From: Octopus sinensis
Taxonomy: Eukaryota
Assembly: GCF_006345805.1 (NCBI RefSeq)
Contig: NC_043023.1
Span: forward strand, 11,966,001 to 12,030,000
Reading direction: 5' to 3'
Length of the DNA stretch: 64,000 bases
In this document: one piece after another, positions 245 to 55,070 of the stretch
How the letters are laid out: each line of letters begins with the position of its first letter
How positions within the stretch are numbered: position 1 is the first letter of the stretch
Made by a program: the position numbers and the translations under genes
Notes under the pieces: model-generated
Told to the model about the DNA's origin: nothing
The model's input: only the letters and a program-made list of their open reading frames with translations
Database searches by the model: none

Positions 245-800
245 TTAATTAATGTGGTAGTCTTAAACCGTTCTCCTCACCTTTTACTAATCAATAATGA
301 CACATTACTTTCATTTTACCAATTAATTTCCTTTATATCACATGTAAAAGTCGATCGTAGGTTTCCATAAACAACAGATCATCATTTCAGTTTGGAAGTT
401 ATTAATTAAGACGAGCAAATTATATTTTCCTAATTGTTGTCAGGTTCCCGCTTCGAAAAATAATTACTGTAACATCGAGAGAGTTACATAATTCTATTCT
501 TTACATTATCATTATTAGCATTATTATCACTGTTACAGCCTTAAAGTAAATCTTTATCAACTTACCGTATTCAGACATAAACAGCGAGTCAACGATCAGT
601 AATTAAGCACCTTAATTAATAATTTAATTGGTGGCGGCAAAGTGGAGTTGAAGTTATTTCCCTTTGTAAAGTTGTATTCCTTCAATTCTCCAATAGATGG
701 CTCTACTGACTGGTTGGTTTCGTTCCGGTTTTTTCTTAATCCCAATTTTCATCAGATTATTTTAATAAAATGTACTCATATATTCTGCTATAAAACTCTA
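245..800 (-). promoter_or_regulatory. Conserved ZNF promoter/exon 1/intron-start cassette for a gene left of the window
   Basis: Homologous to eight other cassettes; donor ACTTAC (rc GTAAGT) at 560-565; CCAATAGATGGCTC at 690-703. Confidence 0.65.
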
Positions 801-808
801 CTAGGTAC

Positions 809-1424
809 GGATCTTTTCGGTTTGAACGGCAGTTTTTTTAATTAAGTGTTTAGTTACTCTTTACTCTTTTACTTGTTTCAGTCATTTGACTGCGGCCATG
901 CTGGAGCACCGCCTTTAGTCGAGCAAATCGACCCCAGTACTTATTTTTTGTAAGCCTAGTATTTATTCTATCGGTCCATTTTGCCGAACCGCTAAGTAAC
1001 GGGGACATAAACACACCAGCATCAGTTGTTAAGCAATGCTACAGGGTCAAACACACACACACACACACGTATATATACGACGGGCTTCTTTCAGTTTCCG
1101 TCTACAAAATCCACTCAGAAAGCTTTGGTCGGCCCGAGGCTATAGTAGCCGACACTTTCTTAAGGTGTCACACAGTGGGACTGAACCCGGAACCATGTGG
1201 TTGGTTAGCAAGCTACTTTATTTCATGAAAGATTCGTCATTAAGGCGTTACATAGAGGGGACATACAAATACAGACAAACATAGGGTGTAGTAGCTTAAC
1301 ACGTTTTGCTATTTACAATGAAATATATATAATATTTACAATATAAAAGCTACTTACCACACAGCCACTCCTGCGCCTACGTGGAAATTGTTTTAAAAAA
1401 CTGCCGTTCAAACCGAAAACATCC
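809..1424. mobile_element. GGATCTTTTC-TIR MITE remnant with nested SINE
   Basis: TIR GGATCTTTTCGGTTTGAACGGCAG at 809; inverted copy ends at 1424. Confidence 0.7.
855..1380 (-). mobile_element. tRNA-derived SINE with CORE-like segment; other copies ~8337-8740(+), 18832-19210(+), 29430-29775(-), 39895-40170(+), 60445-60812(-)
   Basis: Multi-copy; A/B-box-like head GTGGCTGTGTGGTAAG...GGTTCAGTCCC; CCTTGGGCAAGT segment in intact copies. Confidence 0.8.
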
Positions 1425-1499
1425 ATCCACTACAGTAGACCAACTAGGAATGTGAATGAACATCACACCCAACGAAATGGGTGATTATGAGCGGAATAG

Positions 1500-1786
1500 A
1501 GAAGCGGTATTAATTAGATCGGGACCAATGGAAAGGAGGGACAATAATTGGAAAAGAGAGGAAATGCTGTGGGGGAGAGAACCGGAAGAGCGACGGCATG
1601 ACGTCACGTCCCGATGCCACACCCACAAGACGGATTATTTCTTAAGGTATTTGCGGTGAAGTCATGAACTGGAAACAGTCGTAGGATAGAATATGTGAGT
1701 AGACTTTGTTATAATAATCTGGTGGAAATTTGGAAGTGAAGTTGTTGACTGAATGCGACGAAGAAAAAGACCGGAACGAATCCAAC
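1500..1786 (+). promoter_or_regulatory. Upstream half of promoter cassette (Ets-like CCGGAAG, CRE TGACGTCA), truncated by a MITE
   Basis: Aligns to 15200-15445 and rc of 40620-40880; ends abruptly at the TIR at 1787. Confidence 0.6.
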
Positions 1787-2199
1787 GGATCTTTTCTGTT
1801 TGAACGGCAGTTTTTTCTAGCGGTGTCATATGAAATTGTCACCCATAATTATGACCCTGGTATCGATCTATTGCATTTCAATCTGTTTTAGGGTTAGAGT
1901 TAGGGGTGGGGGAAGGGTATCTTTGTTTCTTCAGAAATGTTAATAAACCCAATCTGTTTCTTAAACGAGAAACATTCATACGGCACAGAACGTTTTCACC
2001 TCAATAGACGTCAGTGATTGGTTGAAATTGCAAAAATTGAAGAAAAAAACAACAAATATCTTACAAAGTATAGAATTTTTTTCAATAAAGCCAAGAGAAA
2101 AAGATGTTTTATAAACAAATTCTACCAGTATACGAAGTTTAAAAGTGTTGTTACGTGGAAATTATTTATAAAAAACTGCCGGTCAAACCGAAAAGATCC
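1787..2199. mobile_element. Full-length ~410 bp GGATCTTTTC-TIR MITE
   Basis: ~30 bp TIRs at both ends; homologous to 14720-15134 and 39033-39437. Confidence 0.8.
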
Positions 2200-3645
2200 C
2201 ACATTTATAAGGGTTAGGGGGAAGGGTATCCTGCCACCGTCTTGTAAACCTCGATAGCCTTACCCACTTCATGTAGGCATGCTGCTGTGGTAACGCTGAT
2301 AGTGATATCATCTGTGCAAGCCAAAATAAACTCCTCTAAACCTGGTTCTCTTGGGATGTCACTCAACTTTCACAGTAGGGGGTCAAGAGATCCTCAGAAA
2401 GAATGGGAAAGTGTTTCATGTTTCAAGCATACACTTTTCAAGAGAAAGGGGTGAGAGGAAACCACAGGGAGAGAGAGAGTGAGAAATAAAGGGGCCAGAT
2501 TATTGGTTCACATGTTGGAATGATATATATGCATAAATTAATTGTAAAGATTCAGCAATTGTGAGGTAAGTGCCCTACCAACTAAGCCACCCCACTTCAC
2601 ATGTGAAGCAAGGAAAACAAAGAAAAGAAGGAAAAAAGAGAGAAAGGTAGAAATGATTCCACTATATACATCATCATCATCATCCTCGTTGTTTAATGTC
2701 TGGTTTCAATGCTGGGATAGGTCGGACGGTTTGAGTGAAGGCTGGCAGATCAGGAGGCTGCACCAGGTTGCAAAATGATCTGGTAATGTTTCTACATCTG
2801 GATGCCCTTCCAAACGCCAACCACTCCAAGAGTGTACTGTGTGTGTTTTACGTGACACTGGCTTGGGGCCAGTCAGGCAGTAAACCTTTCCATGCCTCAA
2901 TGGATTCTGACCACTAGAAACATGGACATTAAATGAATGACAAAGCCGATGTTGTAATATTTGCAATGTTGTGCAAAATGCTTAGCAGTATTTCGTCCAT
3001 CGTTATGTTCTGAGTTCAGATTCTGCCAAGGTCGACTTTGTGTTTCATCCTTTCAGGGTCAATAAATTGAGTACCATTTATATACTGGGGTCGATCTAAT
3101 TGCCTGGCCCCTCCCCACAAATTCTGGACCTTGTGCCTAGAGTAGAAATGAATATTTCCAATGTTGAATCACTGTATCTTTTGACTATCCTCTTTATCTC
3201 ACTGACTCTTTTTTTCTGTTTCAGAATATCACATCCTGTTGACATAAAAGAAATTACTTCATTCAAATGTGCCTTTGATATTTTTATCAACTTTAATTGA
3301 CTAAAGGAAGACGATATATTTATAAGGAGCATTCATCAATACATCTACGTTTTTATATAAAGAAAGTCTATGACAAAATATTGGGAAATATTTCTTCTGG
3401 ACGATGGAATTAACAGCAATAATTTGAAGTCTTTGCTGTCTGGAATGTAGAGGAGATGATTGCTTTACAGGTTAATCAAGCTTGGATAACTTTGCAAAGG
3501 TGTAGACAATTGTCACCTCTTGACTTAGATATTAAGCAAGATCTCAGCTGAAAGAAACGGCATTAAATTATTCCCTAAAAATAGTGACAAAACTGAACAC
3601 AAACGTTCTCATAGAAATGAAATAAACACTATCAATGTGATATTT

Positions 3646-4635
3646 ATGACAAATTATCCTCTCATGATGAATCCTTTAACTGAAGCAAACAACTCTGATA
3701 CAGGTGAGAAACCATATCACTCTAATACCTGCAGTAAATCATTCTCTGATAGTGGTGTCTCGACTATACATGAACGTACACATACAAGGAAGAAGCCATA
3801 TCATTGCGATATCTGTGGTAAATCTTCCTCCCGTAGTACTTACTTAACTCAGCATATCTGTATACATACAGGAGAGAAGCCCTATCATTGTGATATCTGT
3901 GGTAAATCATTCACTCAAAGTAGGTACTTAACTGACCACAAACGTACACATACAGGAGAAAAGTCATATCATTGCGATATCTGTGGTAAATCATTCTCTG
4001 ACAGTAGTAAGTTAACTGACCACAAACGTGTTCATACAGGGGAGACGCCATTCCATTGCGATATCTGTGGTAAATCATTCTCTCAAAGTGGTGACTTGAT
4101 TGTACACAAACGTACACATACAGGTGAGAAGCCATACCATTGTGATATCTGTGGTAAATCATTCTCTCAAAGGACTAACTTGACTGCACACAAGCGTACA
4201 CATATGGGAGAGAAACCCTATCATTGTGACTTCTGTGGTAAATCGTTCTCTCAAAGTAGTATTTTAAGTGACCACAAACATACACGTACAGGTGAGAAGC
4301 CATACCATTGTGATATCTGTGGTAAATCATTCTCTCAAAGTAGTTGCGTAACTGACCACAAACGTACACATACAGGTGAGAAACCACACCATTGTGATAC
4401 CTGTGGTAAATCATTCTCTTTTTGTAGTGAATTGACTAAACACAAATATACACATACAGGCGAGGAGCCATATCCTTGTGATATCTGTGGTAAATCATAC
4501 TTTAGAAATAGTCAGTTGACTATTCACAAACGTGTTCATACAGGAGAGAAGCCATATCATTGTGACATCTGTGGTGAATCATTCCCTCAAAAAGGTCACT
4601 TAAGTAGACATTTGAATATTCATACACAAGCGTAA
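3646..4635 (+). CDS. C2H2 zinc-finger protein, 11 fingers (2 degenerate)
   Basis: Repeated CxxC-x12-HxxxH with TGEKP linkers; first ATG 3646; acceptor TTTCAG ends at 3224. Confidence 0.88.
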
Positions 4636-10722: not shown

Positions 10723-12228
10723 CTACCCTTTTCCTTTCACCCCTGTATGAGTATGTTTGTGTCTTGTTAAGTTATTACTTCCAGAAAATAATTTACCACA
10801 AATATCACAACGATATGGCTTCTCCCCTGTATGAATACGTTTGTGTATTTTTAAGGCAATATTCTGAGAGAATGATTTACCACAAATATCACAGTGATAT
10901 GGCTTCTCTCCCGTGTGAGTACGTTTGTGTACAGTTAAGTGAATACTTCGAGGGAATGATTTACCACAAATATCACAATGATATGGCTTTTCACCTGTAT
11001 GAATACGTTTGTGTGTTGTTAAGGCACTATTTTCAGAGAATGATTTACCACAAATATCACAACGATATGGCTTCTCTCCTGTGTGAATACGTTTGTGTGT
11101 TGTTAAGACACTATTGTCAGAGAATGATTTACCACAAATATCACAACGATATGGCTTCTCTCCTGTATGGATACGTTTGTGTTGTGTTAACGAACTGCAG
11201 TTAAAGAATGATTTACCACAAACATCACAGTGATACGACTTCTCCCCAGAATGAATACGTTTGTGTAATGTTAAAGCATAATTTTGAGAGAATGGTTTAC
11301 CACAAATATCACAGTGATACGGCTTCTCTCCTGTATGTGTATGTTTGTGTTGTGCTAGTGAACTACTTACAGAGAATGTATTACCACAAATATCACAACG
11401 ATAGGGTTTCTCTCCTGTGTGAATACGTTTGTGTGCAGTTAAGGTACTATTTTGAGAGAATAATATACCACAGATATCACAACGATATGGCTTCTCTCCC
11501 GTATGAATACATTTGTGTCTTGGTAAGTCACTACTTTTAGAGAATGATTTACCACAAATATCACAGAATGGCTTCTCTCCTGTATGAATACGTTTGTGTT
11601 GTGTGTACCTACTACTAACAGAGAATGATTTACCACAGATATCGCAATGATATGGCTTCTCTCCTGTATGAATACGTTGGTGTGCTGTTAAAGCACTATT
11701 GTCAGAGAATGATTTACCACAGAACCCACAGTGATATGGCTTCTCTCTTTTATGAATACGTTGGTGTCTCTTTAGACAATTATTATAAGAAAATGATTTA
11801 CCACAAATATCACAACTATACGGTTTCTCTCCCGAATGAATACGATTGTGTACAGTCATGTGAATACTTTGAAAGAATGATTTACCACAGATATCACAAC
11901 GATATGGCTTCTCTCCCGTATGAGTACGTTTGTGTACAGATAATTTGAACCTTTCAGAAAATGATTTACCACAGATCTCACAGTAATTTGGCTTCTCTCC
12001 TGTATGAATACGTTGGTGTCTCTTTAAAGCATAATTTTTAGAGAATGATTTACCACAAATATTACAATGATATGGTTTCTCTCCTGTATGAATGCATTTG
12101 TGGGAAATTAGGTTACCTTTGAGAGAGAAGACCTTTTTACAGATGTCACAGTCATAAGACAAATTTTTCTCTTCTTTTATCATTTGTTCAGAGGTAATCA
12201 ATTCTTGAAGTTTCTCACTCTTTTCCAT
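10723..12228 (-). CDS. C2H2 zinc-finger protein, 17 fingers (gene Y; MEKSEK subfamily)
   Basis: Intact ORF; ATG 12228; exon 2 starts 12582; predicted intron 12583-14444. Confidence 0.92.
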   Translation of the reverse strand: MEKSEKLQELITSEQMIKEEKNLSYDCDICKKVFSLKGNLISHKCIHTGEKPYHCNICGKSFSKNYALKRHQRIHTGEKPNYCEICGKSFSERFKLSVHKRTHTGEKPYRCDICGKSFFQSIHMTVHNRIHSGEKPYSCDICGKSFSYNNCLKRHQRIHKREKPYHCGFCGKSFSDNSALTAHQRIHTGEKPYHCDICGKSFSVSSRYTQHKRIHTGEKPFCDICGKSFSKSSDLPRHKCIHTGEKPYRCDICGILFSQNSTLTAHKRIHTGEKPYRCDICGNTFSVSSSLAQHKHTHTGEKPYHCDICGKPFSQNYALTLHKRIHSGEKSYHCDVCGKSFFNCSSLTQHKRIHTGEKPYRCDICGKSFSDNSVLTTHKRIHTGEKPYRCDICGKSFSENSALTTHKRIHTGEKPYHCDICGKSFPRSIHLTVHKRTHTGEKPYHCDICGKSFSQNIALKIHKRIHTGEKPYRCDICGKLFSGSNNLTRHKHTHTGVKGKG

Positions 12229-12859
12229 TATTTTCCTCTCAAATCCCAATTAAAATATTTTTCCTGTTTTATTCTTATACTTAATTCCTTACAAATACTC
12301 CTGCTCCTGTATTTCTGTCCACTGTTACCTTTTACTAGCAGCAATTATATAAATTTATCCAAGTTTCACCAGCACAGAAGCCCCTCTTCTTGATACTCCA
12401 GTCAGTGTTGTTCCAAGTCATGGCTAATAGTATTATTTCAGAGCAAATGTTTCACAGGAATTCTACAACAGATTTCTACAAACAATGTTATACATCTGTT
12501 CTGCATAATATTTTGCTTTAGTCACTAAAAAATGGTAAATATTGAGGATGTTTCTTCTGTTACGTCAATGTCAGTTGATGTTCTGAAATTATAGAGAAAC
12601 AACAGTGTAAGCTTTAGAGGCTATGTAAAAAATACAGATTCGTTTCTGCTGAGATTAATTATAGAAATAAACATTCAACAACAGAATATTTTAATTTAGT
12701 AAAATTTACAACAGAAAATCTTGTGTAAAGCTTACATATCCATACAGTTTACATACACACACAAACATCTATATATACATCTGTGTGTGTATAAGTTTAT
12801 GTCTGTGTATGGGTGTAAATTCGTGTGCTGTGCACGCAGATCTGTTTCTGCCTGTGTCT

Positions 12860-15600: not shown

Positions 15601-15603
15601 TAC

Positions 15604-41548: not shown

Positions 41549-41915
41549 ATGAGGATGAGGATGGTGATGATGAAAACACAAAGACAAACTGAATGTCTCT
41601 TAAAGCTTGTATTCCTTATTCCCTTTCCTGTATTCTCTCGTAAGAAATTCCTCAAAAATCCAGCACCATGTTCTTCACAAATCATCACTGTTTTAATATA
41701 TTTAGACACATACATGATACTGAGGTTCATATTCATGAATTTCATATTGACAGTGATGGAATTGAAGTCGATAACATCAAGGAATAAGCCCTGTCTTATG
41801 GCAGACAAAATATTCATAATTGTTGTCCTGTTGTAATAAATTTTGATATTGATATTGTTACACTTGTGTATGAATACTCACATGTGTACTAAAGTGGCTT
41901 TTTTCAAAGAATGAT

Positions 41916-42668
41916 TCACCACAGATATGATTTTTCCCCAGTATGAATAATTTTGTGCCTAGTCAAGTGACTGTTTCGATAAAATGATTTATCACAGATA
42001 TTACAATGATATGGTTTATCTCCTGTATGTGTACGTATGTGACATGTCAAGATACTATTTCTAGAGAATGATTTGCCACAGATATTACAATGATATGCTT
42101 TCTCTCCTGTATGTGTATGTTTGTGACGAGTTAAATCACTATTTAGAGAAAACGATTTACCACAGATATAACACTGATATGGTTTTTCTCCAGTATGAAT
42201 AAATTTGTGAATAGTCAACTGACTATTTCTAGAGAATGATTTCCCACAGATATCACAGTGATGTGGTTTCTCACCTGTATGTGTATGTATGTGACTAGTC
42301 AAGGAACCTCTTTGAGAGAATGATTTACCACAGACATCACAGTGATATGCTTTGTCTCCAGTATGAATATGTTTGTGACGAGCCAAGTTACTATTTTCAG
42401 AGAATGATTTACCACAGATATTGCAATGAAATGGCTTCTCTCCTGTATGTATACGTACATGACTAGTCAAGTGACTACTTTGAGAGAATGATTTACCACA
42501 GACATCACAGTGATGTGGTTTCTCTCCTGTATCAATGCATTTGTGTTTGGTTAAGACTCTTTCTTCAGTGAATGATTTACCACAGATATCACAGTGATAT
42601 GGCTTCCCACCTGAATCAGTTTTGTTTGGTTTTCTTAAATCATTCATTATAAGATAAAACCTTCTCAT
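41916..42668 (-). CDS. C2H2 zinc-finger protein F, 8 fingers; terminal finger frameshifted by a small deletion
   Basis: ATG 42668/42647; exon 2 starts 43042; remnant of last finger to ~41858. Confidence 0.82.
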   Translation of the reverse strand: MRRFYLIMNDLRKPNKTDSGGKPYHCDICGKSFTEERVLTKHKCIDTGEKPHHCDVCGKSFSQSSHLTSHVRIHTGEKPFHCNICGKSFSENSNLARHKHIHTGDKAYHCDVCGKSFSQRGSLTSHIHTHTGEKPHHCDICGKSFSRNSQLTIHKFIHTGEKPYQCYICGKSFSLNSDLTRHKHTHTGEKAYHCNICGKSFSRNSILTCHIRTHTGDKPYHCNICDKSFYRNSHLTRHKIIHTGEKSYLW

Positions 42669-43067
42669 ACGTATCACAATGATAATGATTTTTTCATTTC
42701 TATGAATATATTTGTGTTCAGTTGTGTCAGTATTTTCAGAGAATACTTTAACACCATGTTTCTTTTATATCTAAAACGGCAGATGTAAACAGTTAAAACT
42801 TTTGTAAATTTATCGAAGCTTAATTAACCAAGCAATCACCTTCACTACATTCCAAACAGTGAAGGCAAATGAATGTTGCTATCAATTCCATCGTAGAAGA
42901 AATATTTTCTTATCGTTTGTCGTTGATGCATTAATGAATGTGCCTTATGAATATATGGTCTTCCTTTAATTGATGAAAGTCAATCAAAATATCAGAGGCA
43001 TGTCTAAATGAAGAAATTTCTTTAACGTCAACATGTGATATTCTGAAATAGAAAAAAAGAAGCAGTG

Positions 43068-44300
43068 AGATAAAGAGAATCATTAAACGACATAGTAATT
43101 CAACATTGCAAATCTTACAACATCAACACTGTCATCCATTTAATGTCTATGTTTGCATGGGTCAGAATCCATTGAGACATTGAAAGTTTTACAACATTCT
43201 GTATAGAGATGAATCGCTTCAACATTTCTCTAAATTCTTACCTGTTTTCTTTGGCATGAAACCACCACAATTCTGGGAAGAGGGTATTTTCAAGTTTAAG
43301 GAAAGATGGAGACGCATTGTGCAACAAAACGGTTAATATTTGGCTGATTAAAAATCTATTGGCAAGTATTTATTGACCTTTTTCTTTCCTTCAAAAATCG
43401 GCACGAACTTTCCGGACAACCCAATACATATGCAATTATGATACGCTAGCAGAATCGTTCACATGCCGAACAAAATGCATAACAGCATTTCGTCCGTTTA
43501 TACTCTAAAAGTTCAAATCCCATCGAGGTCGAATTTGGCTTTCATTCTTTCGAGGTAAAAACAAACAAGAAACATTAGCGCACATTGTTCCATGGAAGCG
43601 ACGTCCGCTTCTCCCGCCAATTTTCTGAACTCGTGTCTAAAGTACAAAAGATTATTCTCATCAACACTATTATTATTATTATGATAGGCTAAGGCGGCGA
43701 ACTGGCAGAAACGTTAGCACGCCGGGCGAAATGCGTAGCCGTATTTCGTCTGCCGTTACGTTCTGGGTTCAAATTCCGCCGAGGTCGACTTTGCCTTTCA
43801 TCCTTTCGTGGTCGATAAATTAAGTACCAGTTACGCACTGGGGTCGATGTAATCGACTTAATCCCTTTGTCTGTCTGACCTTGTTTGTCCACTCTGTGTT
43901 TAGCCCCTTGTGGACAATAAAGAAATATATTATTATTATTATAGCGACCCCAGTCAATGTCGACCTCAGCGGAAACTCCTGACTGAAAATACGGCCGAGG
44001 TCGACTTTGCCCTTCATCCTTTTCGGGAAATACTGGGTTCCATATATTCGGCTTCGCGATCCCCTCAAACACTGCAGGCCTTGGCAAAATTTCTAACCTA
44101 CATCATTACTATTATTAATATAACCTCTTAAACAACAGGACAACGTTAATTAATATGGTATTCTTCAATCGGTTTCCCCTCATTTTACTAATTAATCAAT
44201 TAATTAAACTTTTTTACTCGCATTTTATAAATTAATTTTACTTTATATCCCATGTAACGGTGGTTCATAGGTTTACATAAACAACAGATCATCATTTCAG
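43068..44300. repeat. Intron block duplicated directly at ~53443-54680
   Basis: Same mariner-like end and same SINEs in the same order. Confidence 0.85.
43693..43925 (+). mobile_element. SINE with Nin/Deu-like domain; copies ~1-105, 2975-3150, 54065-54295, 60015-60412
   Basis: GGCGGCGAACTGGCAGAA head; GTCGACTTTGCCTTTCATCCTTTCG...GTCGATAAATTAAGTACCAG. Confidence 0.75.
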
Positions 44301-45105
44301 TTTACAAGTTGTTATTTTAGTCGAGCAAATATATTTTCCGTTTCGAAATAATTCCTGTAATATGGAAAGGTTCACATATTTCTATTATTTACATTATTAT
44401 CAACTTTCACTTGAAAAGGAAGATGAGAGGAGAGAGGAAAGTGCTGTCCGATAGCAAGTTTGCTGAAAGGTGGGTAAATGTCGCAAGAATGGCCAGTATA
44501 AATGGACCAATTCTGAGGATACACCTGTAATTTAAAAAGGTATTACAAAAGGAGAAAGGGACACTCTACTCGCCTTTTTACCAGGCTCCCGTTGGCTTTT
44601 ATGGGGTTTTTTCCCACCAGGAACCTTTCGTAACGCCTCCCACTTTTGGGAGATTTTCATTGTTATAATCTTTCGTTGTTAAACTGTTTTTACTTGTATT
44701 TTTCACAAACGGACAAAACCCTTTGTAACCTTTCGTATTGTTTTTTGTCCCTTTATGTTATAATTGATTTTTGTCAGCCCATGTGGCCAATAAAAGAATT
44801 AATTATTATTAGTAGTAGTACTATCATACAGCATTAAAGTAAATCTTTAGCAACTTACCGTATTCAGATATAAACAGCAAAGCAAGTGCCCGGCAGTAAA
44901 TCACTTTCATAAATAACTGATTTCCACATGGTTTGAAGTGTTGTATAAATTATTTCCCTTTATATGGTTATGGTTGTATTCAATTCTCCACTAGATGGCG
45001 ATACCGAATGGTTCCATTCGTTTTTGTTTTTCTCATTCTCTCATTCTCTTAACTTCACTTTAGATTTTTTTAATTATTTTCTTCAAATTTTCACCAGATT
45101 ATTTG
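44130..45105 (-). promoter_or_regulatory. Promoter/exon 1 cassette of gene F (insert at ~44405-44800)
   Basis: Donor 44853-44858; CCACTAGATGGCG 44988-45000. Confidence 0.7.
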
Positions 45106-45894
45106 CATCTAGACTTTGGATATTTTCCTTTTGAATGGCAGACAATTTCTAGTTAACTAAACACTTTTAAACTTCGTATACTGGTAGAATGTGTTTATAA
45201 AACATCATTTTTTTTTGGCTTTATTGAGAAAATTCTATAGTTTGTAAGATATTTTGTCTTTAATTTCGAGCATTTCGGCAATTTTAACCAATCGCTGACC
45301 TCCATTTGGGGTGAAAACATTCCGTGCTGTATGAATATGTCCCTCGTTTAAGAAACAGATTGGGTTTATTTACATTTGCGAAGAAAAAAAAGATACCCTT
45401 CCCCCACCCCTAATCGTAGATCTAAAATAGATTGAAATGCTATAGATTGATACTAGAGTTATAATTATGGATGACAATTTCATACGACACCGCTACAGAA
45501 AATCGGATTTTTTTCTAGCGGTGTCAAATAATCCTAGACTTTTTCATTCCCAAACTGAGCCCACTTTAATTTTGCTCAGATTGCTTTCAATTTTGGTTAC
45601 GATAAACTAATTACTGGATCTTTTCACTTTGACTGGCAGATTTTTAAAATAATTACTATGTAACTAGAAAATTTTAAACTTCATATACTGGTAGAATGTG
45701 TTTATAAAACATCATTTTCTCTTGGCTTTATTGAGAAAATTCTGTGGTTAGTAAGATATTTGCTGTTTACTTTCTTGCATTTTGGCAATTTCAACCAATC
45801 AATGACGTCTATTGAGGTGAAAACGATTTATGCCGTAACATTTTCTGGCAGCGTCATATGAAAGTGTCCCTGTTACATATTATATATTCGTTTA

Positions 45895-46164
<270 letters not shown>

Positions 46165-46169
46165 TCATC

Positions 46170-46380
46170 CGTTATGCCTTGGATACTGGTCATATTACAT
46201 TTTCCTAAAATTTTTACATTTAATGTCTTCTCTTGCCATTTTGCTGCATATGTTGTGGTGCAAATCAAGTTCTTTTATTTCTCTGTAGAAGAGAGTCCAT
46301 GCTTCTGCCCCATACATAAATACACTCAAAATGCGAAATTTGTATACACTTATTTTAGTTATCAGACTGACATCCTGTTC
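46170..46380 (-). mobile_element. Degenerate RTE-like fragment (inverted homolog 58345-58570)
   Basis: KISVYKFRILSVFMYGAEAWTL. Confidence 0.6.
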
Positions 46381-46493
46381 ACACACACACACACACATAT
46401 CAAATTAAATACACAACTGAAAGAGCTACTACTTGTTTGATACTGTTACGATACTTGAACAGGAATATTTATAAAATGCGCCATGTATCTTAA

Positions 46494-46715
46494 CCCTTTC
46501 ATTACCGTATTTCTGTTGAGATGCTCTGTGTTTCCTTCAATTAATTTTAAATATAACAAAGAATTTAGTAAAATAACTTCATTATCATTAAGCTAGTGTT
46601 AGGAACATAAATTGTGACTAAGGTTTGGTGGAAGATTTTAATTCAAAATTTATGAAAACAAGACATTTGTACTACAGAGCCAGAGGTGGTTTCACATGGG
46701 TTGGTATTGAAAGGG
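46494..46715 (+). mobile_element. piggyBac-like MITE, 222 bp
   Basis: TTAA on both sides; TIR CCCTTTCATTACC/GGTATTGAAAGGG; empty site at ~57686. Confidence 0.88.
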
Positions 46716-47224
46716 TTAAGGGCATAGAGCCAAAGAAACCAAGCCAAATCTGACAGGAACGTGGAGCAGCACTCTGGCTTGCCAGCTCATGTCACACTTT
46801 CCCATCAAAGCCTGCATAGAAGACGGATGCTAAAAATGGATGTTAGAGGATGATGATGAAAACACAACAAAGACAAAATCAATGTCACTTAAAACTTTTA
46901 TTCCTTATTCCCATTCCTTTATTCTCTCATAACAAATTCTTCAAAAATCCAGCACAATCATCTTCAGAAATCAAAGTCATCTTTGTGTTGATATATTTAG
47001 ATATATAAATGATATTGAAGTTTCATGTTGACATCCACATGGGGCCAGATGAGGCTGGCAACAGCCACAATAGGATGGAGCTTTTTATGTGCCACCGGCA
47101 CGGAGGCCAGTCGGGGCGGCGCTGGCAACGGCCACGTTCAGATGGTTCTCTTACGTGCTACCGGCACTGGCATCACAGCTACAATTTCCATTGATGTTGA
47201 ACGCGTGTATATGTATAACAGGAA

Positions 47225-47855
47225 TATATTCAATTCAATTCAATTATTATTGACTCAAAAAGCGAAAGCAAGGCCATTTAGGGAGACAGGGAGTTATGTA
47301 CAGGGAGGGTAGTCATACTAAGAGTTCGGGCCATTTCTGGTCAAGAGAGACTTTGAACCGAGTGGTCGTCGGCATCTTCACTATCTCATCCGGCAGCTTA
47401 TTCCACGGATCCGCAACCCGGACGGAGAAAGCCCCTCTCTTTCGATTGAGATGAAATCGTCATAGATAGAGCTTTATATATATATATATATATTGAATTT
47501 AATTCAATTCAATTTTTATTGGCTCAAAAAGCAAAAAGCAAGGCCATTTAGGGGGACATGGAGTTATGTACAGGGAGGGTGGTCATACAAAGAGTTCAGG
47601 TCATTTCTGGTCAAGAGAGACTTTGAACCGAGCGGTCGTCATCTTCAATATCTCGTCCGGCAGCTTGTTCCACAGATCCGCAACCCGGACGGAGAAAGCC
47701 CCTCTCCTTCGATTGAGATGAAATCGTCGCAGATAGAGCTTTTCAGAGTGACCCCGCAGCCGACGCTCTGGAGCAGGAGTGAGGAACAGCTCTTTCGAGA
47801 GGTTACACTTTCCGCCTATGATGTTGTGAGCGAGATTGAGATCACCACGTCGGTG
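47225..47855 (-). mobile_element. Two tandem CR1/L2-like LINE 3' ends
   Basis: rc translates RGDLNLAHNII...LRGHSEKL...AFSVRVADLWNKLP; 47225-47475 duplicates 47495-47740. Confidence 0.75.
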
Positions 47856-48133
47856 ATCCCATTAGAAACAGAAAATCATAATAATTCGGACACTTGAAAA
47901 CCTAACTGTGCAAAGTTTAATTTTAAAAACATTATTCAGAAACTAATGAGGAAACAGACTGGTGTGGGGCACTAAACTATACGTATGCCATATGTTCTTC
48001 CTTTGTGACGTGTTTTGTATTTGGGGGTCATTGTTTACGTAAATATTTGACATTTTTACAATATTCTTGAGTAAAAGTAAATGGAAAGTAAATACATGAG
48101 TAGGAGGTGAATAATGAAAGAAAGAAAAAAAAA

Positions 48134-49225
48134 CTAGAGAAACTGCCCTTTTCCTTCCTCCCACGTATGAATGTGTTTGTGTTTTGTTAAGTTACAATTT
48201 TGATAGAATGATTTACCACAAATATCACAATGATACAGTTTCTCTCCTGTGTGAATACGTTTGTGTGTTGTTAAGGCACTATTTTGAGTGAATGATTTAC
48301 CACAAATATCACAGAGATACGGCTTCTCTCCCGTATGAATACGTTTGTGTTGTGTTAACAAACTACGTTCAGAGAATGATTTACCACAGATATCACAATG
48401 TGGCTGGTCTCCTGTATGAATACGTTTGTGTTGTGTTAGTGAACTACTTACAGAGAATGTATTACCACAGATATCACAATGATAGGGCTTCTCTCCTGTG
48501 TGAATACGTTTGTGTGCAGTTAAGGCACTATTTTGAGAAAATAATTTACCACAAATATCACAGTGATATGGCTTCTCTCCTGTATGAACACGTTTGTGCT
48601 GTGTTAATGAACTATTTTGAGAAAATAATTTACCACAAATATCACAGAATGGCGTCTCACCTGTATGAATACGCCTGTGTGCAGTTAAGGCGTTACTTTG
48701 AGGGAATGATTTACCACAGATATCACAACGATATGGCTTCTCTCCTGTATGAAGACGTTTGTGTCTTGGTAAGTCACTACTTATAGAGAATGATTTACCA
48801 CAAATATCACAGTGATATGGCTTCTCTCCCATATGAGTACGTTTGTGTACAGATAAATTGAAACTTTCAGAGAATGATTTACCACAGATCTCACAGTAAT
48901 TTGGCTTCTCTCCTGTATGAATACGTTGGTGTCTCTTCAAAGCATAACTTTGAGAGAATGATTTACCACAAATATCACAACTATACGGTTTCTCTCCTGT
49001 AAGAATACGATTGTGTACAGTCAAGTTAATACTTTGAGAGAATGATTTACCACATATATCACAGTGCAATGGTTTCTCTCTTGCATGAATACATTTGTGC
49101 GAAATTAGGTTACCTTTGAGAGAGAAAACCTTTTTACAGATGTCACAGTCATAAGACAAATTTTTCTCTTCTTTTATCATTTGTACAGAGGTAATCAATT
49201 TTTGAAGTTTCTCACTCTTTTCCAT
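48134..49225 (-). CDS. C2H2 zinc-finger protein B, 12 fingers
   Basis: ATG 49225; exon starts 49580; 5' end near-identical to gene Y. Confidence 0.88.
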   Translation of the reverse strand: MEKSEKLQKLITSVQMIKEEKNLSYDCDICKKVFSLKGNLISHKCIHAREKPLHCDICGKSFSQSINLTVHNRILTGEKPYSCDICGKSFSQSYALKRHQRIHTGEKPNYCEICGKSFSESFNLSVHKRTHMGEKPYHCDICGKSFSISSDLPRHKRLHTGEKPYRCDICGKSFPQSNALTAHRRIHTGETPFCDICGKLFSQNSSLTQHKRVHTGEKPYHCDICGKLFSQNSALTAHKRIHTGEKPYHCDICGNTFSVSSSLTQHKRIHTGDQPHCDICGKSFSERSLLTQHKRIHTGEKPYLCDICGKSFTQNSALTTHKRIHTGEKLYHCDICGKSFYQNCNLTKHKHIHTWEEGKGQFL

Positions 49226-49803
49226 TATTTTTCCTCTCAAATCCCAATTAAAATATTTTTCCTGTTTTATTCTTATACTTAATTCCTTACAAATACTCCT
49301 GCTCCTGTATTTCTGTCCACTGTTACCTTTTTCTAGCAGCAATTACATAAATTTATCCAAGTTTCACCAGTACAGAAGCACCTCTTCTTGATACTCCAGT
49401 CAGTGTTGTTCCGAGTCCTGGCTAATAGTATTATTTCAGAGCAAATGTTTCACAGGAATTCTACAACAGATTTCTACAAACAATGTTATACATCTGTTCT
49501 GCATAATATTTTGCTTTAGTCTTTAAAAAATGGTAAATATTGAGGATGTTTCTTCTGTTACGTCAATGTCAATTGATGTTCTGAAATTGTAGAGAAACAA
49601 CAGTGTAAGGTTTAGAGGCTATGTAAAAAATACAGATTTGTTTCTGTTGAGATGAATTATAGAGTGGTCAAGGATGGAGTGGAAGGTGAATATTGCAAAA
49701 ACAAAACAAACAACTGAAATTTTGGAAAATATTTTAATCATAATTTCCATTGCATAAAACACAGGAATATTAAACAAATATAGCAAACAGGAAACTATAG
49801 GGA

Positions 49804-51345
49804 CTACCCTTTTCCTTTCACCCCTGTATGAGTATGTTTGTGTCTTGTTAAATGACTATTCTGAGAGAATGATTTACCACAGATGTTGCAATGATATGGC
49901 TTCTCTCCTGTATGAATGCGTTTGTGTGCATGTAAGTCATTATTTTGAGAGAATGATTTACCACAGATGTTACAGTGATATGGCTTCTCTCCTGTATGAA
50001 TACGTATATGTTTTGTTAAGTTACTACTTCGAGAAAATGATCTACCACAGATATCACACCGATATGGTTTCTCTCCTGTATGAATACGTAGGTGTTTTGT
50101 AACAGCACTATTTTCAGAGAATGATTTACCACAGATATCACAATGATATGGCTTCTCTCCTGTATGAATATGCTTGTGTTTTGTTAACTCACTATTTTGA
50201 GAGAATGATTTACCACAGTTATCACAACGATATGGCTTCTCCCCAGTATGAATACGCATGTGTCTTGTTAAGTCACCATTTTGAGAGAATGATTTACCAC
50301 AAATATCACAATGATGGGGTGACTCTCCTGTATGAATATATTTGTGTGTAGATAAGTGACCACTTCTGGAGAATGTTTTACCACAGATGTCACAATGAAA
50401 AAGTTTCTCTCCTGTATGAATGCGTTTGTGTGCAATTAACGGACTAATTTGAGAGAATGTTTTACCACAAATATCACAGTGATAGGGCTTCTCTCCTGTA
50501 TGAATTCGTATGTGTTTTGTTAAGGTAGCATTATCAGAGAATGATTTACCACAGATATCACAATGATACAGCCTCTCTCCAGTATGAATATATTTGTGTC
50601 TAGATAAGTGACTACTGCTAGAGAACGATTTACCACAGATATCACAATGATATGGCTTCTCTCCTGTATGAATATGCTTGTGTCTTGTTAACTCACTATT
50701 TTGAGAGAACGATTTACCACAGATATTACAATGATACGGTTTCTCCCCTGTATGAATACGTATGTGTCTTGTTAAGTCACCATTTTGAGAGAATGATTTA
50801 CCACAAATATCGCAATGATGGGCTGTCTCTCCTGTATGAATATATTTGTGTGTAGATAAGTGACCACTTGTGGAGAATGATTTATCACAGATATCACAAT
50901 GATATGGTTTCTGTCCAGTGTGAATATATTTGTGTCTAGATAAGTTATTATTTCGAGAGAATGATCTACCACAGATATCACACTGATATGGCTTCTCTCC
51001 TGTATGAATACGTAGGTGTTTTGTAAGAGAACCATTTTCAGAGAATGATTTACCACAGATATCACAATGATATGGTTTCTCTCCTGTATGAATACGATTG
51101 TGTCCACTTAAGTGAATACTTCGAGAGAATGATTTACCACAGATATCACACTGATATGGTTTCTCTCCTGTATGAATATGTTTGTGTCTAGATAAGTTAC
51201 TATCCTTAGAGAATGATTTACCACAGGTATCACAATGATACACTTTCTCCCCCGTATGAGTCTGTTTGTGCATAATTAGGTTGCTTTTCCGAGAGAACAA
51301 CTTTGTACAGATATCACAGTCATATGATCTCGTCTATTTTCTCAT
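49804..51345 (-). CDS. C2H2 zinc-finger gene A, 18 fingers; in-frame TAG three codons after the ATG at 51345 (possible pseudogene, or start at 51273)
   Basis: ATG AGA AAA TAG ACG AGA TCA TAT GAC TGT; rest of the array is open; exon starts 51718. Confidence 0.72.
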
Positions 51346-51864
51346 GTGTTCAGGGGAAAATCAATTCAATAATTTTCTCTCTCTTTCCTATTTCTTTTCC
51401 TCTCAAATCCCAGTTGATATATTTTTCTTGCTCTTGTTTTTATACTTTATTCCTAACACTTCTTCTCCTCTATTTCCTTCTACTGTTGTCTTTGTTTAGC
51501 AAAACATCCGTAAATTTATCCAACTTTCAGTGGCATATATGCTTCAGTTCTTGACACACTAGTCTGTGATGTTTAGAAATTTGACTAAAATGTTATTTCA
51601 GAGCAAATGTTTCACAAGAATTCTTCCTCAAATTTGCAGAAACAGTTTTCTATAATATTTTCCTTTAGTCTTTCAAACATTATAGATATTTAGGATTCTT
51701 CTTCTGTCATCTGACGTTCTGAAATTATAAAGAAACAATAGTGGAAAATGTAGAGGCTACTTAAAAAATACAGATTCATTTCTGAGATAAACTGTAGGAA
51801 CAAACATTTATTTTAACAAAAGTTGCATAAAAAAGTGCCAATCTCTGAAATTGATGGAAGACCT

Positions 51865-52060
51865 CGAGCAACGCCTGGCTCATAAGGGCCGGATTCCCAG
51901 TTTCTTGGCGTATAGGTTCCCCACCTGAACAGAACGCCGGTCCATCGCAGGTGAGCTGCAAGATGCAGGAGGAAAGAGTGGGAGAAAATTGTGGTGAAAG
52001 AGTCAGCAGAAGTTTTGCCATAACCTTCTGCCAGAGCCGCGTGGAGCTTTGGTGTTTCAC
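51865..52060 (-). mobile_element. SINE fragment (fuller copy 61215-61478)
   Basis: Two homologous copies; tRNA-like head GTGGTTAGAGC...GGTTCGAATC in the 61 kb copy. Confidence 0.65.
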
Positions 52061-52354
52061 TTTAGCAATGCATAAATGTAAATATAATTAATATAACATG
52101 GAAGCTGTACATGTATTTTATATAACATGGAAAAGAAAATCTCTTTTGTGGGAAAACCTAACAGTTATTGACATTTGAAATTAGATTCACAATCTCTACA
52201 TTTGTTTCGCTATGGATATTCATCAAAATATGGTATAAATGAATCACTGCTGTGTGATAAGAAGCCTGCTTTCCAAACACATGGTTCCAGGTTCAGTCTC
52301 ACTGCATGACACCTTGGGTATCTTCTACAGTAGCCTCAGGCCAACCAAATTCAT

Positions 52355-52998
52355 AGACATCTCTCTCCCATAGCTAGAAATAGCAGTCAAATCCTGCATA
52401 AATCAAGGACATCTCTCTCCCATAGCTAGAAATAGCAGCCAAATCCCGCACAATTCAAGGACATCTCTCTCTCTCTCATAGCTAGAAATAGCAGCCAAAT
52501 CCCGCACAAATCAAGGACATCTCTCTCCCATAGCTAGAAATAGCAGTCAAATCCTGCATAAATCAAGGACATCTCTCTCCCATAGCTAGAAATAGCAGTC
52601 AAATCCTGCATAAATCAAGGACATCTCTCTCCCATAGCTAGAAATAGCAGCCAAATCCCGCACAATTCAAGGACATCTCTCTCTCTCTCATAGCTAGAAA
52701 TAGCAGCCAAATCCCGCACAAATCAAGGACATCTCTCTCCCATAACTAGAAATAGCAGTCAAATCCTGCATAAATCAAGGACATCTCTCTCCCATAGCTA
52801 GAAATAGCAGTCAAATCCCGCACAAATCAAGGACATCTCTCTCCCATAGCTACAAATAGCAGCCAAATCCCGCACAAATCAAGGACATCTCTATCCCATC
52901 GCTAGAAATAGCAGCCAAATCCCGCATAAATCAAGGACATCTCTCTCCCATAGATAAAAATAGCAGCCAAATCCCGCATAAATCAAGGACATCTCTCA
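52355..52998. repeat. 52-56 bp minisatellite, about 12 units
   Basis: Unit CATAGCTAGAAATAGCAGYCAAATCCYGCAYAAATCAAGGACATCTCTCTCC at 52369, 52421, 52477 etc. Confidence 0.95.
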
Positions 52999-54519
52999 TC
53001 AGAGGCACATCTGAATGAAGGAATTTCTTTACGTCACGACGTGAAATGATGATATTCTGAAAGAGAAAAAGAACGAGGTGGAGAGATTGTAGTGGATGTG
53101 TGTGTGCGTAAACTAAATACAAACTATTTCATCATGATTAAAAGGGTGTGTCAGCTGCGATTGTCTTTCTTTCTCTGTTCTTCCCTTGTATTTAATAATA
53201 TTGAAACAGCTAGAAAGATAGACATACTGCAACAGAGTTACTACTTAAGTAGGTCAGCGCTTGTCCAGTGTGAACTTCGCCGACATGGCTGAGAGGTCAG
53301 GGTCAAAGGAGCTGATCAATCACTTTTTGACAGAACAAGAAGAACCTTTTTTCGCGTTTGTAAATGCATTGTTTTTCGACGACCGATGATTCTTGGATTC
53401 GATTTCGAATCTAGGCTTAGAGAAGGAAGTGCTAATTCTTACAAGATAAAGAGAATCATTAAACAACATTCAACGTTGCAAATCTTACAACATCAACACT
53501 GTCATCCATTTAATGTCTATGTTTTCAAAGGTCAGATTCCATTGAGGCTTTGAAAGTTTTACAATGCTCTGTATAACGATGAAGCGTTTCTACATTTCTC
53601 TAAATACTTACCTGTTTTCTTTGCCATAAAACCACCTTAATTCTGGGAAGAGAGTATTTTCAAGATTAAGGAAAGATGGATACGCATTGTGCAACAAAAC
53701 GGTTAATATTTAGTTGATTAAAAATGTATTGGCAAGTATTTGTTGACCTTTTTCTTTCCTTCAAAAATCGGCATGAACTTTCCGGCCAAACCCCATACAT
53801 ATGCAATAATACGTTATACTAGCAGAATTGTTTACATGCCGAACAAAATGCATAACAGCATTTCGTCCGTCTACACTCTAAAAGTTCAAATCCCATCGAG
53901 GTCGAATTTGGCTTTCATCCTTTCGTGGTAAAAACAAACAAGAAACATTAGCGCACAGGGTTCCATGGAAGCGACGTCCGATTCTTCCGCCAATTTTCTG
54001 AACTCGTGTCTAAAGTACAAAAGATTATTCTCATCAACACTATTATTATTATTATGATAGGCTAAGGCGGCGAACTGGCAGAAACGTTAGCACGCCGGGC
54101 GAAATGCGTAGCCGTATTTCGTCTGCCGTTACGTTCTGGGTTCAAATTCCGCCGAGGTCGACTTTGCCTTTCATCCTTTCGTGGTCGATAAATTAAGTAC
54201 CAGTTACGCACTGGGATCGATGTAATTGACTTAATCCGTCAGTCTGTCCTTGTTTGTCCACTCTGTGTTTAGCCCCTTGTGGGTAGTAAAGAAATATATT
54301 ATTATTATTATTATTATAGCGACCCCGAAACGAAGGAAAGTCAATGTCGACCTTAGCGGAAACTCCTGACTGCAAATACGGCCGAGGTCGACTTTGCCTT
54401 TCATCCCTTTCGGGAAATACTGGGTTCCATATATTCGACTTTGTGCTCCCCTCAAACACTGCAGGCCTCGGCAAAATTTCTAACCTACATCATTACTATT
54501 ATTAATATAACCTCTTAAA

Positions 54520-55070
54520 CAACAGGACAACGTTAATTAATATGGTATTATTCAATCGGTTTCCACTAATTTTACTAATTAATTAATTACACTATTTTAT
54601 TTGCATTTTACCAATTAATTTCCTTTATATCACACGTAACAATTGATAATAGGTTTTCCTAAACAACAGATCAACATTTCAGTTTGGAAGTTATTAATTA
54701 AGACAAGTAAATATATTTTCTTAATTGTTGTCAGGTTCCCGCTTCGAAAAATAATTACTGTAACATCGAGAGGTTCACAGAATTCTGTTATTCACATCAT
54801 TATTATTGTTATTAGTAGTAGTAGTATGATCACCTTTACAGCCTTAAAGGAAATCTTTATCAACTTACCGTTTTCACAAATAAGGAACGAGTCAGCGAAT
54901 CAGTAATTAAGCACCTTAATTAAGAATTTAAAAGAACCGAGATTCAAGTGTTGTAGAGGTTATTTCCCTTTACATGATTTTCTTTCTTCAGTTTTCCAAT
55001 AGATGGCTCTACTGACTTTTCTTTGTCCCTTTCTGTCAGGAACCTCCCTTCAACTTTTTTCAAATTTTCA
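54520..55070 (-). promoter_or_regulatory. Promoter/exon 1 cassette facing genes A and B
   Basis: Donor 54863-54868; CCAATAGATGGCTC 54996-55009. Confidence 0.68.

What the first reader, a model, noticed from the sequence alone, without database searches (positions are those of the whole stretch)
245..55070. Each ZNF promoter cassette carries a positioned, same-orientation CTCF-like site
Seen: nine cassettes carry a motif of consensus CC(A/T)nTAGATGGC(G/T)C at 690, 14583, 15454(rc), 22597(rc), 29382, 35002, 40597, 44988 and 54996. It always lies 114-139 bp upstream of a GTAAGT-type donor and always in the same orientation relative to transcription. 44988 reads CCACTAGATGGCG and 35002 reads CCTATAGATGGCGCTA. 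Established: this resembles the CTCF core (CCACTAGRKGGCGC), and vertebrate clustered protocadherins use one oriented CTCF site per promoter for promoter choice. Inference: this cluster may use a CTCF/cohesin promoter-choice or insulation system giving cell-specific ZNF combinations. NF-Y (CCAAT) or YY1 (ATGGC) are alternative readers, and shared descent alone could preserve the motif.
Basis: partly seen in the sequence, partly recalled or inferred. Interest (0 to 1): 0.8.

Follow-up and report, generated by a model that had tools for sequence, protein, structure and literature searches.

The report
Octopus zinc-finger genes carry CTCF-like sites
Many genes of an octopus zinc-finger gene cluster carry, at their front end, a copied and conserved DNA motif that is likely bound by the genome-organising protein CTCF and likely acts as a local boundary for each gene, while the idea that it lets cells pick one gene at random remains untested.

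Summary
All nine motifs sit where stated, 114-139 bp upstream of a conserved GAATACG|GTAAGT donor and reversed relative to the ZNF gene. The window lies in an Octopus C2H2 cluster. In 1.46 Mb of such clusters, 80 of 94 cassettes found without using the motif carry it.

Three lines favour CTCF as reader. The five most informative positions barely change (1.6 vs 6.0 changes per column). Variants lean towards CTCF-preferred bases (position 13: T to G 11 times, T to C never). The genome encodes an 11-finger CTCF with its base-reading residues and YDF cohesin motif. YY1 and NF-Y fit poorly.

Limits: the whole 15-mer is not clearly more conserved than the rest of the cassette (p=0.06), the commonest form is a weak site, and the scoring matrix was recalled. 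Binding and the transcription start are untested.

Promoter choice is unsupported. Only 82 of 152 ZNF arrays have the cassette, the sites flip with their genes (33 vs 18), there is no shared enhancer or constant exon in view, and most sites lack the CpG.

Verdict: likely a promoter-proximal CTCF site multiplied by gene duplication and acting locally.

The parts
690..704 (+). CTCF-like core CCAATAGATGGCTCT; donor at 565 (-); serves the ZNF array 3.5-4.7 kb left of the window
   Evidence: (12.6 bits)
14583..14597 (+). CTCF-like core CCAATAGAGAGCGCT (A at core 10); donor 14444 (-); ZNF 10726-12249 (-)
   Evidence: (12.7 bits)
15453..15467 (-). Degraded core CTTATAGATGGCTCT; donor 15584 (+) is GTAAAT; ZNF 16784-18166 (+)
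   Evidence: (1.1 bits)
22596..22610 (-). CTCF-like core CCTATAGATGGCGCT; donor 22737 (+); ZNF 24741-25679 (+); inverted duplicate of the 35002 unit
   Evidence: 20256-25535 vs 37352-32104, 91.7%; 14.5 bits
29382..29396 (+). CTCF-like core CCAGTAGATGGCTCT; donor 29268 (-); orphan cassette with no ZNF array downstream
   Evidence: (19.1 bits)
35002..35016 (+). CTCF-like core CCTATAGATGGCGCT; donor 34875 (-); ZNF 31984-32898 (-)
   Evidence: (14.5 bits)
40597..40611 (+). Weak core CCAATAGATGGCTTT; donor 40476 (-); frameshifted ZNF array 36002-37731 (-)
   Evidence: (8.1 bits)
44988..45002 (+). CTCF-like core CCACTAGATGGCGAT; donor 44858 (-); ZNF 41919-42764 (-)
   Evidence: (19.2 bits)
54996..55010 (+). 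CTCF-like core CCAATAGATGGCTCT; donor 54868 (-); ZNF 49807-51333 (-)
   Evidence: (12.1 bits)
557..690 (-). Example of the rest of the cassette on the gene strand: AAGGGAAATAAC block, TAATTAAGG..TTAATTA block and GAATACG|GTAAGTTG donor, each as conserved as or more conserved than the 15-mer
15196..15375 (+). Upstream block with TGACGTCA (CRE-like), CCGGAAG-type (ETS-like) words and an AGAATAT|GTGAGT donor-like site; possible upstream first exon. Also at 1539-1717 (+) and 40699-40879 (-). The labels CRE and ETS are recalled
14720..15134 (.). About 415-bp element with terminal inverted repeats (MITE-like), just upstream of the motif. Other copies at 1787-2199, 27588-27953, 39031-39437
3529..4632 (+). 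ZNF array without the cassette: CRE/ETS block at 1539-1717, then a MITE-like copy at 1787 where the motif would follow
10726..63664 (.). Eleven further tandem C2H2 arrays on both strands, 6-18 fingers each, three split by frameshifts or stops or lacking a 5' cassette

Best explanation
The motif is part of a roughly 150-bp 5' cassette that was copied along with octopus C2H2 zinc-finger genes, and it is likely a real promoter-proximal CTCF site that would act locally as a boundary for each gene, not as a cluster-wide chooser. Shown: the cassette sits about 2 kb upstream of a same-strand ZNF array; the motif points away from the gene; its CTCF-informative bases are constrained; CTCF is encoded with its reading residues intact. 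Inferred step 1 (about 0.7): CTCF binds it. Inferred step 2 (about 0.7 given binding): with its ZF3/N-terminal side facing upstream, bound CTCF shields the first exon from whatever lies upstream (head-to-head neighbours, transposons that land there) and keeps a positioned open site. Each duplicate would then be a self-contained unit in either orientation. Whether the site lies just upstream of the start or inside exon 1 is unknown.
For: Cassettes were found with a profile that excludes the motif. 80 of 94 have an antisense hit at p<1e-4 at -175..-95, vs 6, 2, 1 and 0 of 94 in control windows. 85 of 98 cassettes pair with a same-strand ZNF array, vs 30 when strands are flipped. In 66 non-redundant copies the 5 highest-information columns show 1.6 changes vs 6.0 in 193 other columns (p=0.0015), the same as the splice donor (1.6). 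Variants lean to the matrix: 0 of 20000 null draws event-weighted, p=0.036 with one vote per column. Core 13 is T45/G20/A1/C0, with 10 changes on a local tree; 0 of 69 busy columns elsewhere show such a one-transversion skew. Core 11 varies to A and T, never C, matching the measured order G>T>A>>C (PMC10484683). The sampled copies at C27 12.6-13.0 Mb carry A8>G, the other CTCF-allowed base, which removes the YY1 CCAT core. The CTCF orthologue at C4 matches 7w1m at E 1e-118, has 11 fingers and YDF, and 12 of 15 ZF3-7 reading positions are identical; the three differences are at non-selective positions. CpG o/e is 0.89-1.16 from -400 to +1200 vs 0.64 overall. MITE-like copies lie at -700..-140 in 51 of 98 cassettes (random mean 10.5, max 21) but at -140..0 in 1 of 98.
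Against: The whole 15-mer is not clearly more conserved than the cassette: 4.5 vs 6.0, p=0.064, and 68 of 196 15-column windows are as conserved. The AAGGGAAATAAC (2.7) and TAAT (3.6) blocks are more conserved. The information-versus-change correlation is modest (rho -0.46, p=0.047), and 11 of 310 slid placements do as well. Without core 13 the direction test weakens to p=0.010 (events) and p=0.071 (one vote). The commonest form has disfavoured A4 and T13. One clade fixes G10>A at a near-invariant CTCF position. 14 of 94 cassettes fall below threshold, and 9 of 75 representatives were dropped before the tree as motif-lost or unalignable, which flatters conservation. 70 of 152 ZNF arrays lack the cassette and show no orientation bias (27 reverse, 28 forward). 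Gene conversion can inflate change counts. The matrix is vertebrate and recalled. Echinoderm CTCF motifs show no orientation pattern at boundaries (PMC13317027), so vertebrate polarity rules may not transfer.
Confidence: 0.5

Rival explanations
1. The motif is kept by descent and gene conversion, or is read by another factor (for example one of the octopus's own zinc-finger proteins). The CTCF likeness is then a one-time accident in the founder cassette.
For: All copies descend from one element, so the matrix match is one draw. The whole cassette is conserved and the 15-mer does not stand out (p=0.064; 68 of 196 windows). The majority site is suboptimal. The G10>A clade persists. Patchwork copies on the tree suggest conversion.
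Against: Invariance is concentrated at core 1, 2, 6-10 and 12, while 3-5 and 13-15 vary. The T13/G13 skew has no parallel among 69 busy columns. The named alternatives fail: CCAAT is intact in 38 of 66 with its positions 3-5 variable, YY1-type CCATnTT in 1 of 66, E-box in 2 of 66.
Confidence: 0.22
2. CTCF binds and works as an ordinary promoter transcription factor, opening the promoter and recruiting polymerase, with no boundary role. The CTCF-proximal module would replace the upstream CRE/ETS module in most copies.
For: The position is fixed relative to the donor (106-148 bp, mostly 116-130). Most cassettes have lost the upstream CRE/ETS block. Those that keep it adjacent lose the motif more often (5 of 14 vs 11 of 84, Fisher p=0.049, not phylogenetically independent). 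CTCF motifs are mostly promoter-located single sites in the annelid Dimorphilus (PMC7854359).
Against: In mouse, activation depends on forward-oriented motifs, and only 2% of reverse-only promoters dropped on CTCF loss (PMC12695661). These sites are reverse, assuming the usual CCA..GGC-forward convention, which I did not see spelled out in the passages read.
Confidence: 0.16
3. Protocadherin-type promoter choice: cohesin brings a shared enhancer to one or a few CTCF-marked ZNF promoters per cell, giving each cell a different ZNF set.
For: There is one positioned site per cassette. 49 of 66 neighbouring site pairs are tandem. 39 consecutive donors on the + strand lie at C27 12.43-12.83 Mb, and the sampled copies there keep the motif. 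CTCF has the YDF motif. Paralogues fall into different co-expression modules in bulk data (PMC12513265).
Against: Sites flip with their genes: 33 vs 18 over C27 11.77-12.48 Mb, with 9 convergent and 8 divergent neighbour pairs. Pcdh promoter sites are all forward (PMC7811963). Each gene here has its own coding exon and no shared constant exons. Only 18 of 66 sites have the CpG that gates Pcdh sites. 70 of 152 arrays lack the cassette. Octopus single-cell data report ZnF genes enriched in precursor cells; the passages read say nothing of stochastic choice (PMC9712504).
Confidence: 0.1

Closest known systems
Promoter-proximal CTCF sites of mouse genes (PMC12695661)
   Same: A single site at a fixed short distance from the 5' end, with orientation tied to the gene.
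   Different: Activating mouse sites are forward and about 79 bp upstream of the start. These are reverse, the start is unmapped, and they were multiplied by tandem gene duplication.
Vertebrate clustered protocadherin CSE/CBS promoter sites (PMC7811963)
   Same: A conserved CTCF-type element at about the same distance in each member of a tandem, neurally expressed gene family.
   Different: Pcdh sites are all forward and face reverse sites at a shared enhancer, carry a methylatable CGCT box, and alpha and gamma share constant exons. Here direction is mixed along the chromosome, most sites are CTCT, and genes are independent. This octopus's own Pcdh genes show no such shared site within 1.5 kb of EC1.
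Promoter CTCF motifs of the annelid Dimorphilus gyrociliatus (PMC7854359)
   Same: A spiralian with single CTCF motifs near gene starts and no cluster-wide direction.
   Different: There the motifs are genome-wide and supported by ATAC-seq. Here they are one inherited element in a gene family, with no chromatin data.
Cephalopod C2H2-ZNF expansions (PMC12513265; PMC9712504)
   Same: The genes are members of this known Octopus expansion.
   Different: PMC12513265 contains the word 'promoter' 0 times. No promoter cassette or CTCF site for these clusters turned up in my searches.
Vertebrate insulators with core plus upstream (ZF9-11) motif (PMC12885311)
   Same: A TTGTATTTC stretch lies 18 bp before core C1, in the register of the upstream motif.
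   Different: The match is not unique (offset 10 scores higher), its G varies, and ZF9 and ZF11 are diverged in octopus CTCF. Not established.

Membership tests
CTCF binding site | Match to the 15-bp ZF3-7 core | tested here: met
   8 of 9 window sites and 80 of 94 cassettes at p<1e-4; 58 of 94 at p<1e-5. The matrix is JASPAR MA0139.1 recalled from memory; a paper search for its counts found nothing.
CTCF binding site | Constraint follows CTCF's information profile | tested here: met
   High-information columns 1.6 vs 6.0 changes, p=0.0015; rho -0.46, p=0.047; variants lean to the matrix, p from <5e-5 to 0.07 depending on the test. Moderate, with caveats.
CTCF binding site | Core more conserved than all flanks | tested here: inconclusive
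   More than the upstream flank (p=0.009, 6 columns); not more than the cassette overall (p=0.064; 68 of 196 windows as conserved).
CTCF binding site | Host encodes CTCF with conserved base-reading residues | tested here: met
   L086: 11 fingers, 12 of 15 ZF3-7 positions identical to human, YDF present.
CTCF binding site | Occupancy in vivo or binding in vitro | not testable with these tools
   No ChIP, CUT&Tag, ATAC or EMSA data were available.
CTCF binding site | Upstream ZF9-11 motif (optional) | tested here: inconclusive
   Mean 5.3 of 10 matches at offset 18, but 5.7 at offset 10, of 31 offsets in 60 cassettes.
Pcdh-type promoter-choice system | One positioned CTCF site at each member's promoter | tested here: not met
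   69 of 152 ZNF arrays have a cassette with the motif and 82 have a cassette at all. Met only within the cassette-bearing subfamily.
Pcdh-type promoter-choice system | All promoter sites point one way along the cluster | tested here: not met
   33 vs 18 over C27 11.77-12.48 Mb. Locally uniform in one run of 39 donors.
Pcdh-type promoter-choice system | Methylatable CGCT box gating binding | tested here: not met
   CpG at core 12-13 in 18 of 66.
Pcdh-type promoter-choice system | Shared distal enhancer with opposing CTCF sites | not testable with these tools
   Needs ATAC and Micro-C; cluster ends were not examined.
Pcdh-type promoter-choice system | Stochastic, sparse single-cell expression | not testable with these tools
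   No single-cell counts were available; only text passages of PMC9712504 were seen.
YY1 site | CCATnTT (recalled consensus) | tested here: not met
   1 of 66; the 12.6-13.0 Mb copies lose CCAT altogether.
NF-Y site | Invariant CCAAT | tested here: not met
   Intact in 38 of 66; its last three bases are among the most variable of the core (8, 8, 6 changes).
Gene promoter / first exon | Transcription start and splicing to the ZNF exon | tested here: inconclusive
   Supported only indirectly: donor conservation, strand pairing and CpG rise. No start was mapped and no junction was seen.

The most novel reading that the evidence does not exclude
Octopus independently evolved a CTCF/cohesin promoter-choice system on its zinc-finger transcription-factor clusters, not on its protocadherins. 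Blocks of like-oriented sites (such as the 39-donor run at C27 12.43-12.83 Mb) would compete for shared enhancers, so that neural precursors express different ZNF sets, with T13/G13 tuning site strength.
Probability: 0.1. Interest if true: 0.88.

Novelty: new variant of a known kind. Interest (0 to 1): 0.5.

Why it matters
How the large cephalopod C2H2 clusters are regulated, and whether CTCF works at all as in vertebrates in spiralians, are named as open questions (PMC10658181; PMC10658182). Evidence so far is motif enrichment at boundaries and loop anchors (PMC9023564, PMC13652810). This gives a concrete set of well over a hundred positioned candidate sites (162 exact donor 18-mers genome-wide), with natural strong, weak and deleted variants. 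That makes CTCF function testable gene by gene. It also suggests how a gene family can multiply in any orientation while each copy keeps a self-contained 5' unit. If only the local reading is true, it is a useful but unsurprising case of promoter-proximal CTCF.

Tried and rejected
RNA: no holder of the window was on record as RNA (no RNA holder listed). Contigs of four runs (X1, X2, X12, X15; RNA guessed or unknown) laid on 10000-26900 showed no donor-to-acceptor joint among the 15 joints listed (169 more not shown). They covered 15303-15328, upstream of the motif, and 14316-14474, across a donor. Paralogues and repeats confound this, so I use it as no evidence.

Genome-wide canonical 15-mers are 266 vs 17 in the reversed control, but 18 of the 30 loci inspected are repeat-borne, so this does not show genome-wide CTCF selection.

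PF23611 alone did not rank CTCF first; it was 12th of 14. A whole-ZNF protein search returned only generic vertebrate and other ZNFs. One pattern search was mistyped and gave 0 hits.

Upstream-motif test: inconclusive in cassettes and flat in 31 single-copy genomic sites.

Octopus Pcdh: 20 of 30 loci have no hit within 1.5 kb upstream of EC1, 10 have scattered hits, and 40 kb of contiguous cluster shows no repeated strong site. Pcdh starts may lie further away.

Free transposon origin of the cassette was rejected: 85 of 98 pair with ZNF arrays, and 93 of the first 100 donor hits are on C27.

The direction of the T13/G13 change cannot be rooted; change counts do not tell gain from loss.

Earlier scan notes: nothing found. 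No supplements were read; the motif tables of PMC13652810 and PMC9023564 may bear on the octopus CTCF matrix.


Full report
Setting. The window is G000:C27:11,966,001-12,030,000 in a 2.72-Gb genome. It holds 12 tandem C2H2 arrays on both strands. The N-terminal part of one has its best relatives in Octopus species, so this is part of the known octopus C2H2 expansion.

Observation. The nine motifs are at the stated places. No donor follows them on the TAGATGGC strand. The donor GAATACG|GTAAGT is on the other strand, 114-139 bp from core C1. The motif therefore points away from its gene. Eight of nine pass p<1e-4 with a CTCF matrix recalled from memory (MA0139.1); 15453-15467 does not, and its donor is GTAAAT. 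Seven window arrays have a cassette in the window, one has it just outside and four have none. The cassette at 29382 is an orphan.

Unbiased sample. I took 1.464 Mb of ZNF clusters on C27, C6 and C28 and searched with a profile of the donor region only. This gave 112 hits with a donor; 8 more lacked a recognisable donor and were dropped. Of the 112, 94 were full first-exon-type cassettes. Of these, 80 have an antisense hit at p<1e-4 and 58 at p<1e-5 at -175..-95; control windows gave 6, 2, 1 and 0 of 94. With a looser filter (98 cassettes), 85 pair with a same-strand ZNF array within 8 kb (median 2.2 kb), against 30 with strands flipped. Only 82 of 152 arrays have a cassette and 69 have the motif. 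The 70 others show no orientation bias of hits. Genome-wide, the donor 18-mer occurs 162 times (control 0). The cassette-type 15-mer occurs 102 times (control 17), with 43 of the 100 listed on C27 7.97-13.18 Mb.

Is it selected, and for what? The 98 cassettes reduce to 75 below 97% identity. Nine were dropped as motif-lost or unalignable (one of them wrongly, since it scores 14.1 bits), leaving 66. On a tree built without the motif, core 1, 2, 6, 7, 8, 9, 10 and 12 change 0-3 times, while 3, 4, 5, 11, 13, 14 and 15 change 6-12 times. The five highest-information columns average 1.6 changes against 6.0 for 193 other columns (p=0.0015). The whole 15-mer averages 4.5 (p=0.064), 68 of 196 windows are as conserved, and two other blocks are more conserved. 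Information and change correlate at rho -0.46 (p=0.047), and 11 of 310 slid placements do as well.

Variants lean towards the matrix: 0 of 20000 null draws event-weighted and p=0.036 with one vote per column; without core 13, p=0.010 and 0.071. Core 13 is T45/G20/A1/C0. G needs 10 changes on a local tree, 12 of 16 G groups are nearer a T copy than another G group, and none of 69 busy columns elsewhere shows such a transversion skew. Core 11 varies to A and T but not C, as measured affinities predict (PMC10484683). Copies at 12.6-13.0 Mb carry G8. Against this: the majority site is weak, one clade fixes A10, and conversion among paralogues can inflate counts. NF-Y, YY1 and E-box readings fit 38, 1 and 2 of 66.

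L086 (C4) encodes an 11-finger protein whose best solved relative is human CTCF (E 1e-118). It has the YDF motif and 12 of 15 ZF3-7 reading positions identical; the other three are described as non-contacting or non-selective. ZF9 and ZF11 are diverged, and the upstream-motif test was inconclusive.

Context. CpG o/e rises to 0.89-1.16 from -400 to +1200 against 0.64 overall, as expected (general knowledge) for unmethylated 5' ends. A MITE-like element lies at -700..-140 in 51 of 98 cassettes (random mean 10.5, max 21 in 2000 draws) with many different junctions, but at -140..0 in only 1 of 98. A CRE/ETS-like block with a second donor-like site lies further upstream in 18 of 98. The transcription start is therefore uncertain, and the site could lie within exon 1.

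How it likely works. Binding by CTCF is inferred at about 0.7. Given binding, the reverse orientation argues against the forward-dependent activator role seen in mouse (PMC12695661). It puts the ZF3 side upstream, the side reported to insulate best (PMC12885311). I therefore favour a local boundary that makes each duplicate self-contained (0.5 overall). Rivals are descent or another reader (0.22), CTCF as plain activator (0.16) and promoter choice (0.10). Vertebrate polarity rules may not hold in invertebrates (PMC13317027).

Promoter choice. Pcdh promoter sites are all forward, face a shared enhancer and are gated by CpG methylation (PMC7811963). Here direction is 33 vs 18 along C27 11.77-12.48 Mb, neighbour pairs are 49 tandem, 9 convergent and 8 divergent, 18 of 66 sites have the CpG, and there are no constant exons. 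In its favour, 39 consecutive donors at 12.43-12.83 Mb share a strand. The octopus's own Pcdh loci show no shared site near EC1 (20 of 30 with no hit).

Novelty. Searches of the held library found no report of CTCF sites or a promoter cassette in cephalopod ZNF clusters. The library lacks most subscription papers. What I saw of each paper: passages of PMC9023564, PMC10658181, PMC13652810, PMC9712504, PMC10658182, PMC12885311, PMC7811963, PMC12695661, PMC7854359 and PMC13317027; part 1 of 7 plus passages of PMC12513265; passages plus part 4 of 9 of PMC10484683. No supplements were read. The matrix and the labels YY1, NF-Y, CRE, ETS and MITE are recalled.

Verdict. A real, probably selected, CTCF-like element carried by a ZNF subfamily: a new variant of a known kind, interest 0.5.

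Noticed in passing
window 14720-15134, 1787-2199, 27588-27953, 39031-39437 and cluster-wide: A roughly 415-bp terminal-inverted-repeat element is five-fold enriched just upstream of the cassettes (44 of 169 copies lie within 700 bp upstream of a donor), with many different junctions that approach but rarely cross the motif. It may be an insertion hot spot or a source of adjacent deletions that strip the upstream CRE/ETS block.
   Followed up: partly
window 48137-54868 (-): Two ZNF arrays (49807-51333, 48137-49342), each preceded by an acceptor-like site (53059, 49583), lie behind one cassette (donor 54868), so one first exon may splice to alternative ZNF exons.
   Followed up: no
G000:C27 11,779,855/11,780,468; 12,031,451/12,032,053; 12,190,490/12,191,092; 13,132,205/13,132,816; 13,149,665/13,150,272: Head-to-head cassette pairs about 600 bp apart with convergent motifs and a half MITE between them. 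One partner carries an inverted copy of its own downstream flank, making a near-palindrome over the motif.
   Followed up: no
L015-L017 (G000:C27 12.68-12.97 Mb): Units carry a motif-bearing cassette followed about 1.4 kb downstream by a second cassette with the motif deleted.
   Followed up: no
L128, L133, L143, L147, L154, L156 and others: A dispersed repeat family carries a perfect canonical CTCF 15-mer (CCACTAGRTGGCACC type) in many copies; 18 of 30 inspected canonical hits are repeat-borne. It could seed CTCF sites as B2 SINEs do in rodents (recalled).
   Followed up: no
L086 (G000:C4:86,949,832-86,952,855): The octopus CTCF orthologue has all 11 fingers and the YDF motif in one open frame of at least 854 codons, with no intron in the finger region.
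   Followed up: partly
G000:C14 58.1-59.8 Mb: Dense protocadherin cluster of about 70 EC1 hits at roughly 10-kb spacing in two oppositely oriented blocks; no shared CTCF-like site within 1.5 kb upstream of EC1.
   Followed up: partly
about 350-400 bp downstream of many cassette donors, e.g. window 39575-39656: A second, diverged copy of the donor region sits in the first intron of many genes and may be an alternative donor.
   Followed up: no
window 20256-25535 and 32104-37352: A 5.3-kb inverted duplication at 91.7% identity copied one cassette and two ZNF arrays; the copy at 20162 lacks its own cassette.
   Followed up: partly
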